A stretch of DNA of 64,000 bases from Gammaproteobacteria bacterium (GCA_965204045.1 CBDBDW010000002.1:2946610-3010609), one strand, 5' to 3'. Numbered from the stretch's first letter, positions 1 through 57,398 are shown. A program made the numbers and translations. The notes: generated from the sequence alone by a model not told the origin.

Positions 1-1065
1 TTCGATATCCGGATGTCCCGGGTGGTTACGGAGTATCAGGCCGAAATTCTGGAGGATGAACGGGGACGTCGAGTTATCGCCCCCTTCCCGGACCAGGTGA
101 AGGTCAAGACCCAGTATGCCTCCGGGGTCAAAATCCACTCGGTCTACATGTCCAACTTCCAACTCCTGCCCTACAAGCGGGTCGAGGAACACTTTGCCGA
201 CCAGTTCGGCATCTCCTTGAGCGCCGGTAGCGCTTGCAACTTTAACCAGGAGGTGTACGAGAAGCTGGCTCCCTTTGAGGACTGGGTAAAGCGGGCGCTA
301 TCGACGGCGCCGTTACTTCATGCTGACGAGACCGGCATCAACATCGGCGGAAAACGACAATGGCTACATGTCGTATGCAGCGCCACGCTGACCCTGCTGG
401 CGCCCCATGACAAGCGCGGCGGTGACGCCATGGCGGCGATGGACGTCCTTCCCGAGTACACCGGCACCCTGGTACATGACCACTGGAAGCCCTACTACCA
501 GCTTCCTTGTGACCATGCTTTGTGCAATGCTCACCACCTGCGAGAGTTGGAGCGTGCCTGGGAGCAGGATAAACAGCAGTGGGCCCAACAGCTGCAGGCC
601 CTGTTGCTGGAGATCAATAAGGCCGTTGATACGGCCGGCGGTGCGTTGAACACCAGGCAGGCTGACGCCTTCAGGGAACGATACCGACGACTACTGGAAG
701 TGGCACAGACCGAGTGCCCACCACCGGACGAGTCACAACGGCATAAGGGACAACGAGGTCGACTGAAACGATCCAAATCCAGAAGCCTGCTGGAACGGGT
801 GCTTCAGTTCGAGGAGGATGTCCTGCGCTTTATGGTGGAACAGGACGTACCCTTTACCAACAATCAAGGCGAACGGGACCTGCGCATGAGCAAAGTCCAG
901 CAGAAGATCTCCGGCTGCTTTCGTTCAGAGCTTGGGGCAAAAATCTTTGCCCGGATCCGCAGCTATCTCTCAACCTGCCGGAAAAATGGGGTATCATCTG
1001 ATGAGGCCTTGCGGCTTCTCTACGAGGGTCGATGGCCCAAGTTTATGGGGATAGCCCCTGAATAG
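1..1065 (+). CDS. IS66-family transposase (TnpC-like), C-terminal ~350 aa; 5' end lies outside the window
   Basis: Reading frame is open from base 1. Motifs HVVCSATL, LVHDHWKPY and CNAHHLRELE match the IS66 transposase catalytic region as recalled from memory. No N-terminal part is present in the window. Confidence 0.75.
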   Translation, partial: FDIRMSRVVTEYQAEILEDERGRRVIAPFPDQVKVKTQYASGVKIHSVYMSNFQLLPYKRVEEHFADQFGISLSAGSACNFNQEVYEKLAPFEDWVKRALSTAPLLHADETGINIGGKRQWLHVVCSATLTLLAPHDKRGGDAMAAMDVLPEYTGTLVHDHWKPYYQLPCDHALCNAHHLRELERAWEQDKQQWAQQLQALLLEINKAVDTAGGALNTRQADAFRERYRRLLEVAQTECPPPDESQRHKGQRGRLKRSKSRSLLERVLQFEEDVLRFMVEQDVPFTNNQGERDLRMSKVQQKISGCFRSELGAKIFARIRSYLSTCRKNGVSSDEALRLLYEGRWPKFMGIAPE

Positions 1066-1110
1066 TTACAAATAAATTATGAAAAACGAGAGTCACGTCG
1101 GATACAGTGA
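1..1110 (+). mobile_element. IS66-family insertion sequence, right-hand portion (partial). The right inverted repeat cannot be delimited without the left end.
   Basis: Transposase 3' end followed by an AT-rich tail of about 100 bp. The right boundary is approximate. Confidence 0.4.
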
Positions 1111-1222
1111 AACACCTGTCGGATAGAGTTTAAGATTTTAAGGGTGAAAATGTGATCTCAAACGTTCTGTCATAGACATATACAGTTATTTTGTTGAGCA
1201 ACAAGATCAGGAGAACTGAAAT

Positions 1223-2122
1223 ATGAGTAGACTCTGGAAAATACATTGCAAAGAAGATGAATACCCAGGAATGTGGCGACGCTGGTTCAGAAATCAGTGC
1301 GTTGCTGTTGGCTATTCGAGTGCCTTTGGCTTTACGCTGGACGGAAGAAGCATAGCAAGAGGCTGGTCCATAACTCGTAAAGCGATCAAGGCTATGGAAA
1401 TAGGCGATTATGTCGTGGTATCACTGCAAAATAAGCGGGTAGGCGGCATGGGACAAATTACAGGGAAGGCAATAGGCGATGACGAATGGAACCCCCTAGT
1501 ACCAGTAAGCAACGACTTAGAATATGGAGAAATGGGACGAAGGATTCTTGTGCGGTGGGAGCTGACGACAGGCCCTGAATCTCAGGATTTAATCATTCAA
1601 ATGCCCCATGACAGGAGCTTTCAGCCTCCTACCGAAGTAAGACCAACCATATCACAAATAACATCAATGACAGTCGATGACCTTCGCGAAATTATGAACG
1701 ATGAGAAAAACTGGGTCAGCCTGTCAGGAAAGTTCAACTCTGAAAAAGCGATTTCAGATTACATTGCGTACTATTCCCATCATCTTGAGGACGGTTTGCT
1801 CCCACATCCTAACAAGCAAGTAAGGGAACACGTTTTTGAGGACGGAACGCGTTCAGACGTTTTGCTTATTGATAATGCTGGAATACCTGTAATAGTTGAA
1901 TGTAAGCAGTATGCGCCCGGGATAAATGCTATACACCAATTACGACATTATATGGAACAACTACAGGTTGAGACGGAAGAAGAGGTCAGAGGTATTCTCG
2001 TTCATGGTGGCGCCCAAAAGATTTCAAAAGAAGTCATTGCAGAAGCTGGAAAAGAACCACAAGTTGAAATTGTGAGTTACAGCCTGAAAGTTGACTTCAG
2101 ACCATCATATCAAGTTTTATAA
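1223..2122 (+). CDS. PUA/EVE-like N-terminal domain fused to a C-terminal PD-(D/E)xK nuclease; candidate modification-dependent (type IV-like) restriction endonuclease
   Basis: N-terminal segment (LWKIHC...IKAMEIGDYVVVSLQNK) has the layout of EVE/PUA-like modified-base readers. C-terminal SDVLLIDNAGIPVIVECK is a clear D...(E)xK nuclease core. RBS ggagaa sits upstream of the ATG. Confidence 0.45.
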   Translation: MSRLWKIHCKEDEYPGMWRRWFRNQCVAVGYSSAFGFTLDGRSIARGWSITRKAIKAMEIGDYVVVSLQNKRVGGMGQITGKAIGDDEWNPLVPVSNDLEYGEMGRRILVRWELTTGPESQDLIIQMPHDRSFQPPTEVRPTISQITSMTVDDLREIMNDEKNWVSLSGKFNSEKAISDYIAYYSHHLEDGLLPHPNKQVREHVFEDGTRSDVLLIDNAGIPVIVECKQYAPGINAIHQLRHYMEQLQVETEEEVRGILVHGGAQKISKEVIAEAGKEPQVEIVSYSLKVDFRPSYQVL

Positions 2123-2160
2123 TATTCTACCCCTAACCTGGCCAAGCCAGAACCAAAACT

Positions 2161-2283
2161 CGTTCGTCATTCCCGCGCAGGCGGGAATCCAGTGGACCAC
2201 ACGTCCCGGAGGGACACTTTATAATGTGTCGCAAGCGACAAGTTAATCGACTGGATTCCTGCCTTCGCAGGAATGACGAACGA
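2161..2283. repeat. MITE-like palindromic element, copy 1 (about 122 bp; terminal inverted repeats cgttcgtcattcccgcgcaggcgggaatccag / ctggattcctgccttcgcaggaatgacgaacg)
   Basis: Imperfect 32-bp terminal inverted repeats were read directly. The same core recurs at 36.64 kb and 57.2 kb. Confidence 0.7.
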
Positions 2284-2395
2284 GATTCTTTGCCATTTTG
2301 CACAAGATTTTACTGATAAGGGACTAAGCTTATTTTCTCTGACCATTTCCCTATCGATGATATTTCGAATTCTGCCTGATTTTCACCAGTAAAAT

Positions 2396-3016
2396 TTAAT
2401 CTGTCCCACTCACTTCATCGCCGGGGATCATTTCCAGGGACTCGATATCCCGGGTATTCAGATATACCCCGCCCTGTTTCAGGTCGCGCCTGACTGCAAG
2501 ATCGGCATTCAGGAGATAGGCAGGCCGGAGGACAATTTCATGGTGTTCGGCTGCCGGGTCGAAAGAGTAGTTATCAAGCCAACCAAAGTAGTGAATGCCT
2601 TGTTTTGTGCGTACCAGGGTCCAGAGTTCGTTATCAGCAGCATAGTTTGCAACCACCGGCCAAATTACTTGAGAGTCTGGGTCGGGTATGAACGGAATTA
2701 ATCTACGTAACCTATAAAATCCTATGAGAAAGAAATACCAGACAAGCCCGCCGACGAGCAGGATCAATATCGTCTCAGGCTGTATAGGGGCGTCGTCCCT
2801 GGCCAGGTTGAAAAGGTAAAGGTCTTTGTAATCAAAGATCCATGAGGTACCTGCAAGACCCAAAAGAACTATAAAACTATGAATAATACTCCAGGCAACA
2901 CTCTCGAACTGAGACATGCGTTTGGCAGGATAGTGGACGCGGTAGAGTTGCATGGCGAGGAAACCCGGCGCCAGGTAGAGCAAGAGGCTAATGGCCTCAT
3001 TAAAGGGAAAACTCAC
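2396..3016 (-). CDS. hypothetical integral membrane protein
   Basis: 206-aa ORF with several hydrophobic helices. No recognisable catalytic motif. Confidence 0.45.
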   Translation of the reverse strand: MSFPFNEAISLLLYLAPGFLAMQLYRVHYPAKRMSQFESVAWSIIHSFIVLLGLAGTSWIFDYKDLYLFNLARDDAPIQPETILILLVGGLVWYFFLIGFYRLRRLIPFIPDPDSQVIWPVVANYAADNELWTLVRTKQGIHYFGWLDNYSFDPAAEHHEIVLRPAYLLNADLAVRRDLKQGGVYLNTRDIESLEMIPGDEVSGTD

Positions 3017-3408
3017 AGCAAATGATTATCCTGATATCAGGATATTACTTGTCAGTGCTGGTGACGTTGTCTGGATTACTGGTTTCATTCGACTGTGTCC
3101 GTGTCGGTGGTCCAGAATCGGGAACCCTTAACGCTGAGAACGGAGGTTTGGTTTTAGGAGCCGGGTTGAAATGGATGAATGATCTTGAAAAATCAACATT
3201 GCGCCGTTTTTTATTGCCGGACATAGTGTCACCTCCTGATACTTTCTACGTTGTGATCTGTTAAATTTTCCACGATGGATATTATTGCGCGTGGCTCCGG
3301 GCAACGTCAAGTAATTTTGAGTATCTGGTAACCAATTTATTGCTCTTGCTGGTATCATTATGTTATGAGACTATCCCAAGCACATGACAACTGAACAGGG
3401 GGAAAATC

Positions 3409-3645
3409 ATGAGCGAACCGCAATGTCCACAAAAGTATCCTTACGGGTTGGAGCTGGAGGCCGGCGTGTATTTCTGGTGCAAGTGCGGGGCTTCCGCCAA
3501 TCAGCCTTTTTGTGACGGATCCCATGCCGGCAGCGAATTTGCACCGGTTCGGTTTGAGGTGAAAGAAACGGAAACAATATGGCTGTGCGGTTGCAAGCGC
3601 AGCGGCAATTCGCACTTGTGTGACGGCAGCCATAAAAATCTCTGA
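3409..3645 (+). CDS. CDGSH-type iron-sulfur domain protein (two CDGSH motifs)
   Basis: Two copies of C-x-C-x(n)-CDGSH (CKCGAS..FCDGSH and CGCKRS..LCDGSH). RBS ggggga lies upstream. Confidence 0.85.
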   Translation: MSEPQCPQKYPYGLELEAGVYFWCKCGASANQPFCDGSHAGSEFAPVRFEVKETETIWLCGCKRSGNSHLCDGSHKNL

Positions 3646-3654
3646 GCCGGCAGG

Positions 3655-4863
3655 ATGGACAAAACCTTAGCCGACCAACGGGAACTGGCCGACAATCTCG
3701 TTAATCGGGCCAGGGCCGTGGCGTCTGATTTACGCGCCCGCGCAGCAGCTGCGGAGGAGCAACGGCGCATCCACGCGGAATCTTACCGCGCCATGAAAGA
3801 GGCCGACTTGTTCCGCGCCTATGTACCGGTGCGTTTCGGCGGGTATGAACTGCACCCGCGCTATTTCTGGCGTGTTGCCGCGGAAATTGCCAAGGGCTGT
3901 CCTTCATCAAGCTGGGTTTACAGCGTCATGTCCTGTCACACCTTCGTGACCGCATTGTTTCCCGAACAGGCCCAGGAAGAGGTGTTCGGGTCCGACCCCA
4001 ATGCCGGCATCAGCGGCATCCTGCCTGATCGGACCAGCGCAACCAGGACAGATGGCGGTTACGTATTAAAAAACAGTGTCTGGCCGTTTGGCTCAGGTTG
4101 CCACAACGCAGACTGGTTCCTGCTCGGTGCGCAACTGGACGGCATGCCTCCGGGACATGACAAGGCGTTTTTCCTGGTGCCCCCGGAAGACATACAGATC
4201 AAGGATGACTGGTATGTGACCGGCCTCAGGGCCACAGGAAGCAACAGCGTATCTTTGAAACAGGATGAATACTTTGTCCCCGGACACAGGATGCTGAAGG
4301 CGGAAACCGCCCTGGCGCACAAGTACGGCACTGCAAGGCCGTTGCTCTACCGGGCGCCGTTCGCGCCGTTACTGGTGATTTCATTAAGCGCCGGCACTAC
4401 CATGGGCGCCGCCACCGGGGCGCTGGAATTCTACGAAGACCTGCTGCAAACCCGGTCCGCCAGGCCGATGGTTTATACCGATGACATTCCCAAAATACAA
4501 CTGTCCTCAACCCACCACATTCTCGCTGAAGCCACGGCAAAACTTGAAACAGCCAGGCTGATGACGGACCATGCCCTGGACTTGTGTTATGAGGCTGCCG
4601 TTGATAATAGCAGGATATTAAGCACGGAACAGCGTGCACGTCTCAGGTTATACGGGGTACATGCCATGCACCTGTGCCGGGAAGTCGTGAATATCCTGTA
4701 CCAGGATTCCGGCGGTTCTTCCCTGCATGAGCGCAGCCTGATGCAGCGCTACTATCGTGATATCAACGCCATGTCCATGCACGAGGCCATGCACGAGGAG
4801 ATTATCAAGGAGGTGTACGGCCGGTTAAGAATGAACCAGACGACTACGCACTGGCTGCTTTAG
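3655..4863 (+). CDS. acyl-CoA-dehydrogenase-fold flavin-dependent monooxygenase (group D, HsaA/DszC-like oxygenase component)
   Basis: 402 aa with ACAD-like architecture but no acyl-CoA catalytic-base context. It sits beside CDGSH and Rieske genes. Confidence 0.55.
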   Translation: MDKTLADQRELADNLVNRARAVASDLRARAAAAEEQRRIHAESYRAMKEADLFRAYVPVRFGGYELHPRYFWRVAAEIAKGCPSSSWVYSVMSCHTFVTALFPEQAQEEVFGSDPNAGISGILPDRTSATRTDGGYVLKNSVWPFGSGCHNADWFLLGAQLDGMPPGHDKAFFLVPPEDIQIKDDWYVTGLRATGSNSVSLKQDEYFVPGHRMLKAETALAHKYGTARPLLYRAPFAPLLVISLSAGTTMGAATGALEFYEDLLQTRSARPMVYTDDIPKIQLSSTHHILAEATAKLETARLMTDHALDLCYEAAVDNSRILSTEQRARLRLYGVHAMHLCREVVNILYQDSGGSSLHERSLMQRYYRDINAMSMHEAMHEEIIKEVYGRLRMNQTTTHWLL

Positions 4864-36641: not shown

Positions 36642-36703
36642 CTCGTCATTCCCGCGCAAGCGGGAATCCAGTGAAGTACTTGTCCCGAAGGGACACTTTA
36701 TTG
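36642..36703. repeat. MITE-like element, truncated copy 2 (left inverted repeat and core only)
   Basis: tcgtcattcccgcgcaagcgggaatccagtg...gtcccgaagggacactttat matches the left half of copies 1 and 3. The right inverted repeat is absent. Confidence 0.55.
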
Positions 36704-57181: not shown

Positions 57182-57398
57182 TAACTACTCACCCCCACTC
57201 GTCCTTCCTGCACTTCTCCTCGTTCGTCATTCCCGCGCGCCCCCCGTCATTCCCGCGCAGGCGGGAATCCAGTGAAAAAAACGTCCCAAAGGGACACGTT
57301 ATAAGGTGTCGCAAGCGACCCGTTTAACAGACTGGATTCCGGCCTTCGCCGGAATGACGAAGGGAGCGCGGGACGAACAGGAGGGGTGAGTAGTTACA
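57182..57398. repeat. MITE-like element, copy 3, nested inside an additional outer inverted repeat (aactactcacccc / ggggtgagtagtt)
   Basis: Inner inverted repeats cgtcattcccgcgcaggcgggaatccagtg / actggattccggccttcgccggaatgacg. Core gtcccaaagggacacgttat. Outer 13-bp inverted repeats read directly. Confidence 0.7.

What the first reader, a model, noticed from the sequence alone, without database searches (positions are those of the whole stretch)
1223..2122. PUA/EVE-like + PD-(D/E)xK fusion next to an IS66 remnant: candidate modified-DNA-dependent (type IV) restriction enzyme
The N-terminal 150 aa has the sequence layout of EVE/PUA-like modified-base-binding domains. The C-terminal domain carries an unambiguous D-x12-E-C-K nuclease core. 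EVE-nuclease fusions are predicted type IV restriction enzymes. This one is flanked by IS66 on one side and a MITE on the other, so it is likely mobile cargo.
Basis: partly seen in the sequence, partly recalled or inferred. Interest (0 to 1): 0.55.

Follow-up and report, generated by a model that had tools for sequence, protein, structure and literature searches.

The report
Predicted modified-DNA-sensing restriction nuclease
This intact 299-residue gene joins a probable modified-base-reading domain to a NucS-type DNA-cutting domain, which fits an untested member of the known class of single-protein anti-phage nucleases that cut modified DNA; it is a resident chromosomal gene, not cargo of the insertion elements beside it.

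Summary
The ORF at 1223..2122 (+) is real and intact. Residues about 173-299 are a NucS/RecB-type PD-(D/E)xK nuclease.

The same N-domain is fused elsewhere to HNH, NOV_C/DUF3883, DUF3427 and MrcB_N+HNH, which are typical type IV restriction modules. The family is patchy across more than 10 phyla, has no conserved partner or linked methyltransferase, is often decayed, and is nearly absent from viral contigs.

The "mobile cargo" idea fails. Two 82%-identical relatives carry the gene at the same rnr-rlmB / DUF6338-CDGSH-ACAD site without the IS66 or the MITE.

Verdict: a probable type IV enzyme and a new member of a known, already predicted kind (EVE-like-PD(D/E)XK). Its target modification is unknown. 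Interest is moderate to low.

The parts
1223..2122 (+). Complete gene, 299 aa plus stop. A member of a conserved family of about 300-aa proteins that sources label 'endonuclease NucS domain-containing' or 'DUF91'.
   Evidence: ORF. 647 homologs at E<=1e-3, 55-99% identical among the best 120. 62 invariant columns in 52 sequences. dN/dS is 0.22-0.54 against relatives.
1223..1663 (+). N-terminal domain, residues 1-147. A probable PUA-superfamily, EVE-like modified-base reader.
   Evidence: The AF2 model built with the alignment has pLDDT 84.5; the order of elements is beta(4-8)-alpha(17-23)-beta(26-29)-alpha(46-57)-beta(63-68)-beta(72-83)-beta(106-112)-beta(123-126)-beta(143-146). EVE is the only recurrent Pfam family. 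hhalign P 1.5e-4. No Foldseek confirmation.
1328..1480 (+). Residues 36-86, the stretch that aligns with the EVE core motif (W..ARNxhxxMxxGD - beta - beta ...D). It includes W48 (1364-1366).
   Evidence: hhalign aligns query 36-86 with EVE 12-72. Pairings are W48/W26, R52/R35, M58/M41, G61-D62/G44-D45 and D86/D72. The same register recurs across the family with a separately built EVE HMM. Score 31.6, against a maximum of 18.4 in 200 shuffles and 22.2 in 150 natural decoys.
1664..1738 (+). Inter-domain linker, residues 148-172: a helix at 151-158, the invariant N163-W164, then a low-confidence loop at 170-173.
1739..2119 (+). C-terminal NucS/RecB-type PD-(D/E)xK nuclease domain, residues 173-299.
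   Evidence: Pfam NucS_C E 4e-8, above the gathering score. NCBIfam NucS model positions 128-228 only. PDB 2vld and 5gke.
1856..1951 (+). Catalytic core: D212 (1856-1858), E226 (1898-1900), K228 (1904-1906), Q239 (1937-1939), Y243 (1949-1951).
   Evidence: Codons read. All five residues are invariant in 52 sequences. D212/E226/K228 align with the NucS DVM...ELK residues.
1070..1222 (+). Conserved upstream spacer, a likely promoter/leader, with the Shine-Dalgarno AGGAG at 1209-1213.
   Evidence: About 95% identical to the rlmB-gene spacer of L073 and L074. Homology starts exactly where the IS66 ends.
1..1069 (+). 3' part of an IS66-family element (transposase ORF 13..1065, cut by the window edge) ending in ...GTTAC at about 1069. 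A later insertion, not part of the system.
   Evidence: The junction is defined by alignment to IS-free relatives. No second copy of the end was found in the window.
2135..2326 (.). Insertion of about 190 bp carrying a palindromic MITE/REP-like repeat (arms 2156-2196 and 2247-2287), flanked by CTAA at 2133-2136 and 2324-2327. A later insertion, not part of the system.
   Evidence: Inverted repeat. The fold has z -9.1. The element is absent from the same spacer in L073 and L074.
2396..3016 (-). DUF6338 membrane-protein gene, convergent with the nuclease gene. It is co-resident with the nuclease gene in the low-GC islet (about 1070-3400) in this genome and in two close relatives. A functional link is unproven.
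   Evidence: Pfam DUF6338 E 1e-13. The same neighbour is present in L073 and L074. GC is 43-48% against 55-60% in the flanks. DUF6338 was not among the recurrent families in the scan of 150 neighbours.

Best explanation
The gene encodes a stand-alone, single-polypeptide, modification-dependent (type IV-like) restriction endonuclease.

**Shown**
- The gene is intact and conserved.
- The C-terminal domain is a NucS/RecB-type PD-(D/E)xK nuclease with a complete active site.
- The N-terminal domain is an autonomous module that also occurs fused to other nuclease and type IV domains.
- There is no conserved partner gene and no linked methyltransferase.

**Inferred**
- The N-domain is a divergent EVE-like member of the PUA superfamily.
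- It binds DNA and flips a modified base into an aromatic pocket that includes W48. Other conserved tryptophans (W5, W89, W112) may contribute.
- That binding positions or de-represses the nuclease, probably acting as a dimer like NucS, which then cuts nearby.
- The host lacks the target modification, so only invading phage DNA carrying it is cut.
- Which modification is read is unknown.
For: **Nuclease domain**
- NucS_C scores above the Pfam threshold, and PDB NucS/EndoMS match.
- D212, E226, K228, Q239 and Y243 are invariant.

**Sensor domain**
- EVE is the only Pfam family hit by more than one of 47 diverse N-domains (5 of 47).
- hhalign against PDB EVE sequences gives P 1.5e-4 over the EVE core. 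W48 falls on 2eve W26, a pocket residue according to PMC7897488.
- The score of 31.6 exceeds all 200 column shuffles (mean 12.1, max 18.4) and all 150 natural decoys (max 22.2).
- An EVE HMM built here finds the same register across the family.
- NucS's own N-domain scores at background: 13.5, P 0.15.

**Domain shuffling**
- The N-domain is also fused to HNH (P0129), NOV_C/DUF3883 (P0207, P0224, P0229; P0207 also has a DUF3427-like middle domain) and MrcB_N+HNH (P0230).
- The P0207 layout resembles the PUA-DUF3427-DUF3883 layout of the characterised YenY4I (PMC6765204).

**Genomics**
- 67 genome loci lie in more than 10 phyla at 41-69% identity.
- No conserved neighbour was found among 266.
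- 150 neighbours gave 151 Pfam families, with N6_Mtase in only 2.
- Some loci sit in defence or mobile islands: BrxC_BrxD, TerB, DEAD/ResIII, AbiE, ApeA-HEPN, PglZ.
- Decay is frequent: truncations, frameshifts and one IS-split copy.
- Only 1 relative was found in 2.9 M viral contigs.
- dN/dS is 0.38-0.54 among close relatives, below 1 but relaxed, as is usual for accessory or defence genes.

**Precedent**
- EVE-PD(D/E)XK type IV enzymes have been predicted (PMC7641849).
- A NucS-like nuclease fused to another sensor restricts modified phages (PMC12191111).
Against: - There is no experimental datum for any family member.
- The window protein has no Pfam EVE hit, even at E<=10.
- The hhalign match covers only 51 of about 150 columns, with probability about 51%.
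- Foldseek against PDB, which holds EVE, YTH, SRA, ASCH and VcaM4I structures, and against BFVD shows no PUA-like hit in the top 50 (E<0.43).
- A profile search of PDB sequences finds no EVE.
- There is no significant PADLOC hit.
- Many loci lie among housekeeping genes.
- The family is unusually well conserved for a defence gene, 55-69% identity across phyla.
- One 85%-identical homolog lies 1-5 kb from a C5-methyltransferase/Vsr cluster, so plain 5mC is an unlikely target, at least in that host.
Confidence: 0.55

Rival explanations
1. A modification-independent nuclease. The N-domain is a beta-rich DNA-binding or dimerisation domain that does not read modified bases. The enzyme acts on DNA structures or ends, or is a restriction or toxin nuclease controlled in some other way, for example by an unlinked methyltransferase or antitoxin.
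For: Foldseek finds no PUA-like match. Pfam and PDB sequence searches give no significant N-domain hit. The EVE similarity is limited to one helix-strand-strand segment.
Against: That segment carries the EVE signature residues in the correct register, and the score beats all controls. The N-domain co-occurs with MrcB_N, DUF3427 and DUF3883, which are modules of modification-dependent enzymes (PMC6765204). No conserved partner gene exists that could supply control.
Confidence: 0.15
2. An RNA-directed nuclease. The PUA/EVE-like domain reads a modified nucleotide in tRNA or rRNA, or in phage RNA, and the NucS_C-type domain cleaves single-stranded nucleic acid. The outcome would be abortive infection or RNA quality control.
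For: PUA, ASCH and many EVE domains bind RNA (PMC7641849). The structurally nearest nucleases after NucS are the cA4-activated Card1 and Can2 effectors. In the window's lineage the gene sits next to rnr (RNase R) and rlmB.
Against: The rnr-rlmB adjacency is confined to close relatives; neighbours elsewhere are unrelated. The closest solved relatives of the nuclease domain, NucS/EndoMS, cut dsDNA. The fusion partners of the N-domain (HNH, DUF3883, MrcB_N, DUF3427) belong to DNA restriction.
Confidence: 0.12
3. A DNA-repair endonuclease: a NucS analogue whose N-domain recognises a lesion, uracil or a mismatch rather than a foreign modification.
For: The nuclease domain is of the NucS type. In one genome the gene overlaps a UDG-family gene by 4 bp. 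Sequence conservation across phyla is high.
Against: The NucS N-domain is absent: no NucS_N hit in 47 members, hhalign at background, and an NCBIfam NucS score of 45.8 against a cutoff of 216. The C-terminus is not conserved, so no clamp-binding tail is evident. The family is patchy, accessory and often pseudogenised, and it sits in a low-GC islet. The UDG link occurs once in about 55 loci.
Confidence: 0.1
4. A decaying or non-functional gene in this genome.
For: Many relatives are truncated, frameshifted or split by an IS. An IS66 inserted 153 bp upstream may have changed expression.
Against: The ORF is full length with every family-invariant residue. The SD and the 150-bp upstream spacer are preserved. 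dN/dS is below 1.
Confidence: 0.03

Closest known systems
EVE-PD(D/E)XK and EVE-HNH type IV restriction enzymes (predicted in Bell, Wolf & Koonin 2020, PMC7641849; characterised examples are VcaM4I/TspA15I (EVE-HNH) and YenY4I (PUA-DUF3427-DUF3883): Lutz et al. 2019, PMC6765204; PMC7897488)
   Same: - An N-terminal PUA-superfamily-like sensor and a C-terminal nuclease in one polypeptide.
- No adjacent methyltransferase.
- Relatives of the N-domain occur with HNH and with a DUF3427-like + NOV_C/DUF3883 arrangement resembling YenY4I.
- The EVE core motif and the pocket tryptophan are aligned.
   Different: - The N-domain fails the Pfam EVE threshold and gives no Foldseek match to solved EVE structures.
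- It appears to lack the GVRNY loop and carries long insertions.
- The nuclease is of the NucS/RecB type rather than HNH or DUF3883.
- No activity data exist.
NucS/EndoMS mismatch endonuclease (PDB 2vld, 5gke)
   Same: The C-terminal domain has D-x13-E-x-K plus QxxxY. It scores above the Pfam NucS_C threshold and is the best PDB match by both sequence and Foldseek.
   Different: - The N-terminal NucS domain is replaced by an unrelated one.
- The full-length NCBIfam NucS score is far below cutoff.
- No conserved C-terminal clamp motif is present.
- The family is found in Proteobacteria, Acidobacteriota, Chloroflexota, Omnitrophota and other phyla as an accessory gene, not as a core gene of Actinobacteria and Archaea.
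END nucleases: the END-Mag variant, a NucS-like PD-DExK nuclease fused to an inactive EndoIII/Ogg1-like sensor (PMC12191111)
   Same: A NucS-like nuclease is used as the effector of a single-protein, modification-sensing anti-phage enzyme. This shows experimentally that this nuclease type works in that role.
   Different: The sensor domain is a helix-hairpin-helix glycosylase fold, not a beta-rich PUA-like domain, and the domain order and specificity differ.
McrB-N (DUF3578/MrcB_N) and SRA/YTH-type readers of McrBC, MspJI and TagI-like systems
   Same: They follow the same logic: a base-flipping reader of modified DNA coupled to a nuclease. One relative of the N-domain carries MrcB_N as a second reader (P0230).
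   Different: No GTPase or ATPase motor is present.

Membership tests
Pfam NucS_C (PF01939) / RecB-like PD-(D/E)xK nuclease | Score above the Pfam gathering threshold over the domain | tested here: met
   33.7 bits against a cutoff of 24, E 4e-8, residues 174-274.
Pfam NucS_C (PF01939) / RecB-like PD-(D/E)xK nuclease | Catalytic D...E-x-K plus the QxxxY motif | tested here: met
   D212, E226, K228, Q239 and Y243 are invariant in 52 sequences and align with NucS.
NucS/EndoMS (mismatch endonuclease, NCBIfam NF003270) | Full-length match above the equivalog cutoff | tested here: not met
   45.8 bits against a cutoff of 216; only model positions 128-228 are matched.
NucS/EndoMS (mismatch endonuclease, NCBIfam NF003270) | NucS N-terminal dimerisation and mismatch-binding domain | tested here: not met
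   No NucS_N hit in 47 N-domains at E<=10. hhalign against the N-domains of 2vld and 5gke (plus one from-memory mycobacterial NucS sequence) scores 13.5, P 0.15, which is background.
NucS/EndoMS (mismatch endonuclease, NCBIfam NF003270) | Conserved C-terminal sliding-clamp-binding tail | tested here: inconclusive
   C-termini vary in length and sequence across the family. No motif search against known clamp-binding peptides was run.
EVE domain (Pfam PF01878) | Score above the Pfam gathering threshold | tested here: not met
   No EVE hit for the window protein at E<=10. Only 5 of 47 relatives give weak hits, best E 0.026.
PUA superfamily (EVE-like) | Profile-level similarity to EVE over the core motif, with conserved signature residues in register | tested here: met
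   hhalign P 1.5e-4 over 51 columns. W48/W26, R52/R35, G61-D62/G44-D45 and D86/D72 pair up. The score exceeds 200 shuffles and 150 decoys. The register is consistent across the family.
PUA superfamily (EVE-like) | Five-stranded mixed beta-sheet core, plus an extra strand next to beta1 placed after the core for EVE (criteria quoted in PMC7897488) | tested here: inconclusive
Type IV (modification-dependent) restriction endonuclease | Sensor and nuclease present with no cognate methyltransferase | tested here: met
   Two-domain protein. No conserved neighbour among 266. N6_Mtase occurs in 2 of 150 neighbours. No methyltransferase gene lies among the ORFs examined next to the window copy (IS66 transposase, DUF6338, CDGSH, acyl-CoA dehydrogenase).
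Type IV (modification-dependent) restriction endonuclease | Cleavage requires a modified base; restricts modified phage or plasmid DNA | not testable with these tools
   This needs biochemistry and phage assays.
Catalogued defence systems (PADLOC-DB v2) | Significant match to a defence-system model | tested here: not met
   Best hits are PDC-S02 at E 0.01 and PDC-S18 at E 0.03, both short.

The most novel reading that the evidence does not exclude
The N-domain would be a previously unrecognised branch of PUA-like readers with its own ligand. That ligand would be something other than 5mC/5hmC, for example a hypermodified or uracil-derived base. Three observations hint at this: the operon with a UDG-family gene in one genome, the same-strand Nmad2 ('nucleotide modification associated domain 2') genes beside three homologs, and one homolog living next to a C5-methyltransferase/Vsr cluster. 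The family would then be a new specificity class of type IV enzymes built on a NucS nuclease, and potentially a new reagent for mapping that modification.
Probability: 0.2. Interest if true: 0.6.

Novelty: new member of a known kind. Interest (0 to 1): 0.35.

Why it matters
If confirmed, the family adds a widespread, compact (about 300 aa) single-protein enzyme to the modification-dependent restriction repertoire. There are at least 647 clusters at 90% identity, mostly from environmental bacteria.

Its reader domain is divergent enough to escape Pfam EVE, so its specificity could differ from that of known EVE, SRA and YTH enzymes. Such enzymes are useful for epigenetic mapping and for understanding how phages with modified DNA are countered.

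The work also corrects database labels. This is not a NucS mismatch-repair enzyme, although sources label it "endonuclease NucS".

As a genome-scan finding it is an expected kind of object, and nothing here overturns current understanding.

Tried and rejected
**Searches that did not help**
- Single-sequence AlphaFold gave pLDDT 31.7 and was useless.
- A profile search of PDB sequences with the N-domain alignment returned only chance hits.
- A profile search of the 5.8-billion-protein set with the N-domain alignment returned only close family members in the 120 rows shown.
- The EVE profile search returned mostly Pseudomonas EVE proteins and barely deepened the EVE profile.
- Ten members of the most divergent N-domain clade gave no EVE hit.
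- megablast of 1-3400 against plasmids found nothing.
- Literature searches for PF28530, Nmad2 and NucS_C found nothing on this family.

**Ideas rejected**
- P0181, a 1379-aa protein with 12 'matches', is an Ig-like repeat surface protein. The hits are a bias artefact.
- "Orthodox NucS" fails on the N-domain and on the equivalog score.
- "Cargo of IS66/MITE" fails on synteny.
- "A two-gene system with a conserved partner" fails because there are no recurrent neighbours.
- "A phage gene" fails because there is only 1 hit in the viral contigs.

Full report
**1. What is in the sequence**

The ORF at 1223..2122 (+) is present exactly as reported. It is 299 codons long, starts with ATG, and has AGGAG nine bases upstream. 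It lies in a low-GC stretch of about 1070-3400 (43-48% GC), between flanks of 55-60% GC.

Upstream, ORF 13..1065 is an IS66-family transposase (Pfam DDE_Tnp_IS66 E 4e-47; NCBIfam transpos_IS66 E 2e-84). The match begins at model position 54 and no stop codon precedes the ORF. The gene therefore runs off the window edge, and "remnant" cannot be judged.

Downstream there is a strong palindrome with arms at 2156-2196 and 2247-2287 (folding z -9.1). It recurs at 57246-57358 and partly at 36645. It is a genuine small repeated element.

**2. The C-terminal domain**

- Residues 174-274 match Pfam NucS_C above threshold (E 4e-8).
- They also match the C-terminal half of the NCBIfam NucS model.
- PDB NucS (2vld) and EndoMS (5gke) are the only significant sequence hits and the top Foldseek hits.
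- The motif is D212-x13-E226-C227-K228, followed by Q239xxxY243.
- All five residues are invariant in a 52-sequence alignment, as are 57 other positions.

**3. The N-terminal domain**

Negative results:
- The window sequence has no Pfam, PHROG or PDB sequence hit.
- A profile of 47 diverse N-domains finds nothing in PDB sequences.
- The alignment-based AlphaFold model is confident (pLDDT 84.5). Even so, Foldseek against PDB and BFVD lists only nuclease-domain matches in the top 50.

Four sequence-level results nonetheless point to EVE:
- When the 47 N-domains are scanned individually, EVE (PF01878) is the only family hit by more than one member: 5 of 47, best E 0.026.
- hhalign of the N-domain profile against four EVE sequences recovered from PDB (2eve, 2ar1, 3eop, 2g2x) aligns residues 36-86 with EVE 12-72 at P 1.5e-4. 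Conserved residues of both families pair up: W48/W26, R52/R35, M58/M41, G61-D62/G44-D45 and D86/D72. W26 of 2eve is one of the two residues originally proposed to form the EVE ligand pocket (PMC7897488).
- The score of 31.6 exceeds 200 column shuffles (mean 12.1, sd 2.1, max 18.4) and the reversed profile (8.8). It also exceeds 150 natural decoy proteins (mean 12.9, max 22.2).
- An EVE HMM built here hits about half of 331 family proteins weakly, but always in the same register.

As a rival test, the N-domains of 2vld and 5gke score 13.5 (P 0.15), which is background. The order of secondary-structure elements in the model fits the EVE layout, although sheet topology could not be checked.

My reading is that this is a divergent PUA-superfamily, EVE-like domain, with probability of about 0.65. 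It is not a member of Pfam EVE by threshold.

**4. The N-domain as a mobile module**

An exhaustive phmmer search of 1.84 billion representatives with residues 1-165 gives 199 hits. Most have the same roughly 300-aa architecture. Others carry the N-domain fused to different partners:
- HNH (P0129)
- NOV_C/DUF3883 (P0224, P0229)
- a DUF3427-like region plus NOV_C (P0207)
- MrcB_N plus HNH (P0230)

DUF3883, DUF3427, MrcB_N (DUF3578) and HNH are the building blocks of characterised modification-dependent enzymes. The P0207 layout resembles that of YenY4I (PUA-DUF3427-DUF3883), which cleaves 5mC and 5hmC DNA (PMC6765204). EVE-PD(D/E)XK fusions have already been predicted to be type IV enzymes, many of them detectable only by HHpred (PMC7641849). 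A NucS-like nuclease fused to a different sensor restricts phages with modified guanine (PMC12191111).

**5. Family and genomic context**

- There are 647 clusters at E<=1e-3. The best 120 are 55-99% identical and about 300 aa long. Sources name them "endonuclease NucS (domain-containing)" or "DUF91".
- In one genome per species, 67 loci were found. They span Gammaproteobacteria, Alphaproteobacteria, Desulfobacterota, Acidobacteriota, Chloroflexota, Nitrospirota, Omnitrophota, Planctomycetota, Verrucomicrobiota, Bacteroidota, Rhodothermia and Fibrobacterota, at 41-69% identity. The distribution is patchy and shaped by horizontal transfer.
- Among 266 flanking genes, no cluster has more than 3 members.
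- 150 neighbours hit 151 Pfam families. The most recurrent are Nmad2, AAA_21 and DEAD/ResIII, at 3 each. N6_Mtase occurs in 2. The gene therefore acts alone and has no cognate methyltransferase.
- Some copies sit in clear defence or mobile islands: an integrase/D5-primase island with BrxC_BrxD, TerB and a helicase, AbiE, ApeA-HEPN and PglZ. Others lie among housekeeping genes.
- At least 13 loci are fragments and 4 more are frameshifted. Some of the frameshifts may be long-read sequencing errors. One copy is split at the domain boundary by a transposase-bearing insertion.
- Only one relative was found in 2.9 million viral contigs.
- dN/dS is 0.38-0.54 among close relatives and 0.22 at greater distance. 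Differences among close relatives cluster in residues 31-60, 95-101 and 127-147 of the N-domain.

**6. The local context refutes "mobile cargo"**

Proteins 82% identical (P0004 in L073, P0005 in L074) are encoded in the same slot: RNase R - rlmB - gene - DUF6338 (opposite strand) - small ORF - CDGSH zinc-finger protein - acyl-CoA dehydrogenase. A 69%-identical copy also follows rnr-rlmB.

The window has the same downstream genes: DUF6338 at 2396-3016, CDGSH at 3409-3645 and the acyl-CoA dehydrogenase at 3655-4863.

- **Upstream.** Window 1070-1222 is about 95% identical to the rlmB-gene spacer of the relatives, and homology starts right after ...GTTAC at 1069. The IS66 is therefore an insertion into that spacer.
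- **Downstream.** About 190 bp (2135-2326, flanked by CTAA) carrying the palindromic repeat is absent from the relatives.

Both elements arrived after the gene. The low-GC islet holding the gene and DUF6338 suggests an older acquisition.

**7. Mechanism**

Shown:
- an intact nuclease active site
- a separable N-terminal module shared with other type IV-style architectures
- a solitary gene with no linked methyltransferase
- accessory-gene population behaviour

Inferred:
- The N-domain binds DNA and flips a modified base into an aromatic pocket that includes W48.
- That binding licenses the NucS-type nuclease, probably as a dimer, to cut.
- Host DNA lacks the mark.
- The target is unknown. One homolog lives 1-5 kb from a C5-methyltransferase/Vsr cluster, which argues weakly against plain 5mC.

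I put this explanation at 0.55. The rivals are a modification-independent nuclease (0.15), an RNA-directed nuclease (0.12), a lesion or mismatch repair nuclease (0.10) and a non-functional gene (0.03).

**8. Novelty and score**

The architecture class, an EVE-like sensor fused to a PD(D/E)XK nuclease as a type IV enzyme, is already predicted in the literature, and related enzymes have been characterised. This specific family is uncharacterised and mislabelled as NucS. Its reader domain is divergent enough that its specificity may be new. I classify it as a new member of a known kind, with interest 0.35.

Noticed in passing
window 57246-57358; partial copy at 36645-36671; reference copy at 2156-2287: A palindromic repeat of about 125 bp, with core GTCATTCCCGCGCAGGCGGGAATCCAG in both arms, occurs at least three times in the window. 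It is a MITE/REP-like family of this genome. The copy next to the gene is a lineage-specific insertion.
   Followed up: partly
L001 7504-8004 (the same region appears as L007 5504-6004): In a Rhodothermia MAG, a UDG-family gene (166 aa) overlaps the start of the homolog by 4 bp. The pair sits in an integrase/D5-primase island next to CoiA, DEAD/ResIII helicase, BrxC_BrxD-like and TerB genes. It could be a uracil-DNA-directed pairing, but it was seen only once.
   Followed up: partly
L040 624-1163, L043 3702-4070, L049 6923-7600: Nmad2 ('nucleotide modification associated domain 2') genes lie on the same strand directly beside the homolog in three unrelated genomes. This is the only neighbour cluster with more than 2 members. 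No literature on it was found in the library.
   Followed up: partly
L055 6001-8612: In a Nitrospirales chromosome the homolog is split at the domain boundary (residues 1-171 and 170-299) by a 1.7-kb insertion. The insertion encodes a 312-aa protein that looks like a zinc-ribbon/DDE (ISXO2/IS1595-like) transposase by eye; no family scan was run on it.
   Followed up: partly
window 2396-3016 (-); L073 6980-7600; L074 6983-7603: A DUF6338 membrane-protein gene and a 59-aa ORF share the low-GC islet with the nuclease gene in the window and in two close relatives. DUF6338 was not among the recurrent neighbour families in the 150-neighbour scan. Whether it works with the nuclease is unknown.
   Followed up: partly
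L072 1-4220: An 85%-identical homolog lies 1-5 kb from a cluster of C5 DNA methyltransferase, PP_RS20740-family, HATPase_c_3 and Vsr genes. That host probably carries 5mC.
   Followed up: no
proteins P0015, P0021, P0043, P0301 and others: The Pfam accession PF28530.1, which is absent from the local Pfam copy, is precomputed on many members. These include P0301, a 220-aa fragment covering only residues 1-188. The N-domain or linker may therefore already have an entry in the newest Pfam; its name and clan are unknown to me.
   Followed up: partly
L073 1-1245: A PglZ (BREX-type) gene lies a few kb upstream of rnr-rlmB in a close relative. The rnr-rlmB neighbourhood may be a hotspot for defence-gene insertion in this lineage.
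   Followed up: no
window 13-1069: The stop codon of the IS66-family transposase (1063-1065) lies only a few bases inside the element's right end (...GTTAC at 1069). The end is defined here by comparison with IS-free relatives. The left part of the element is outside the window.
   Followed up: partly
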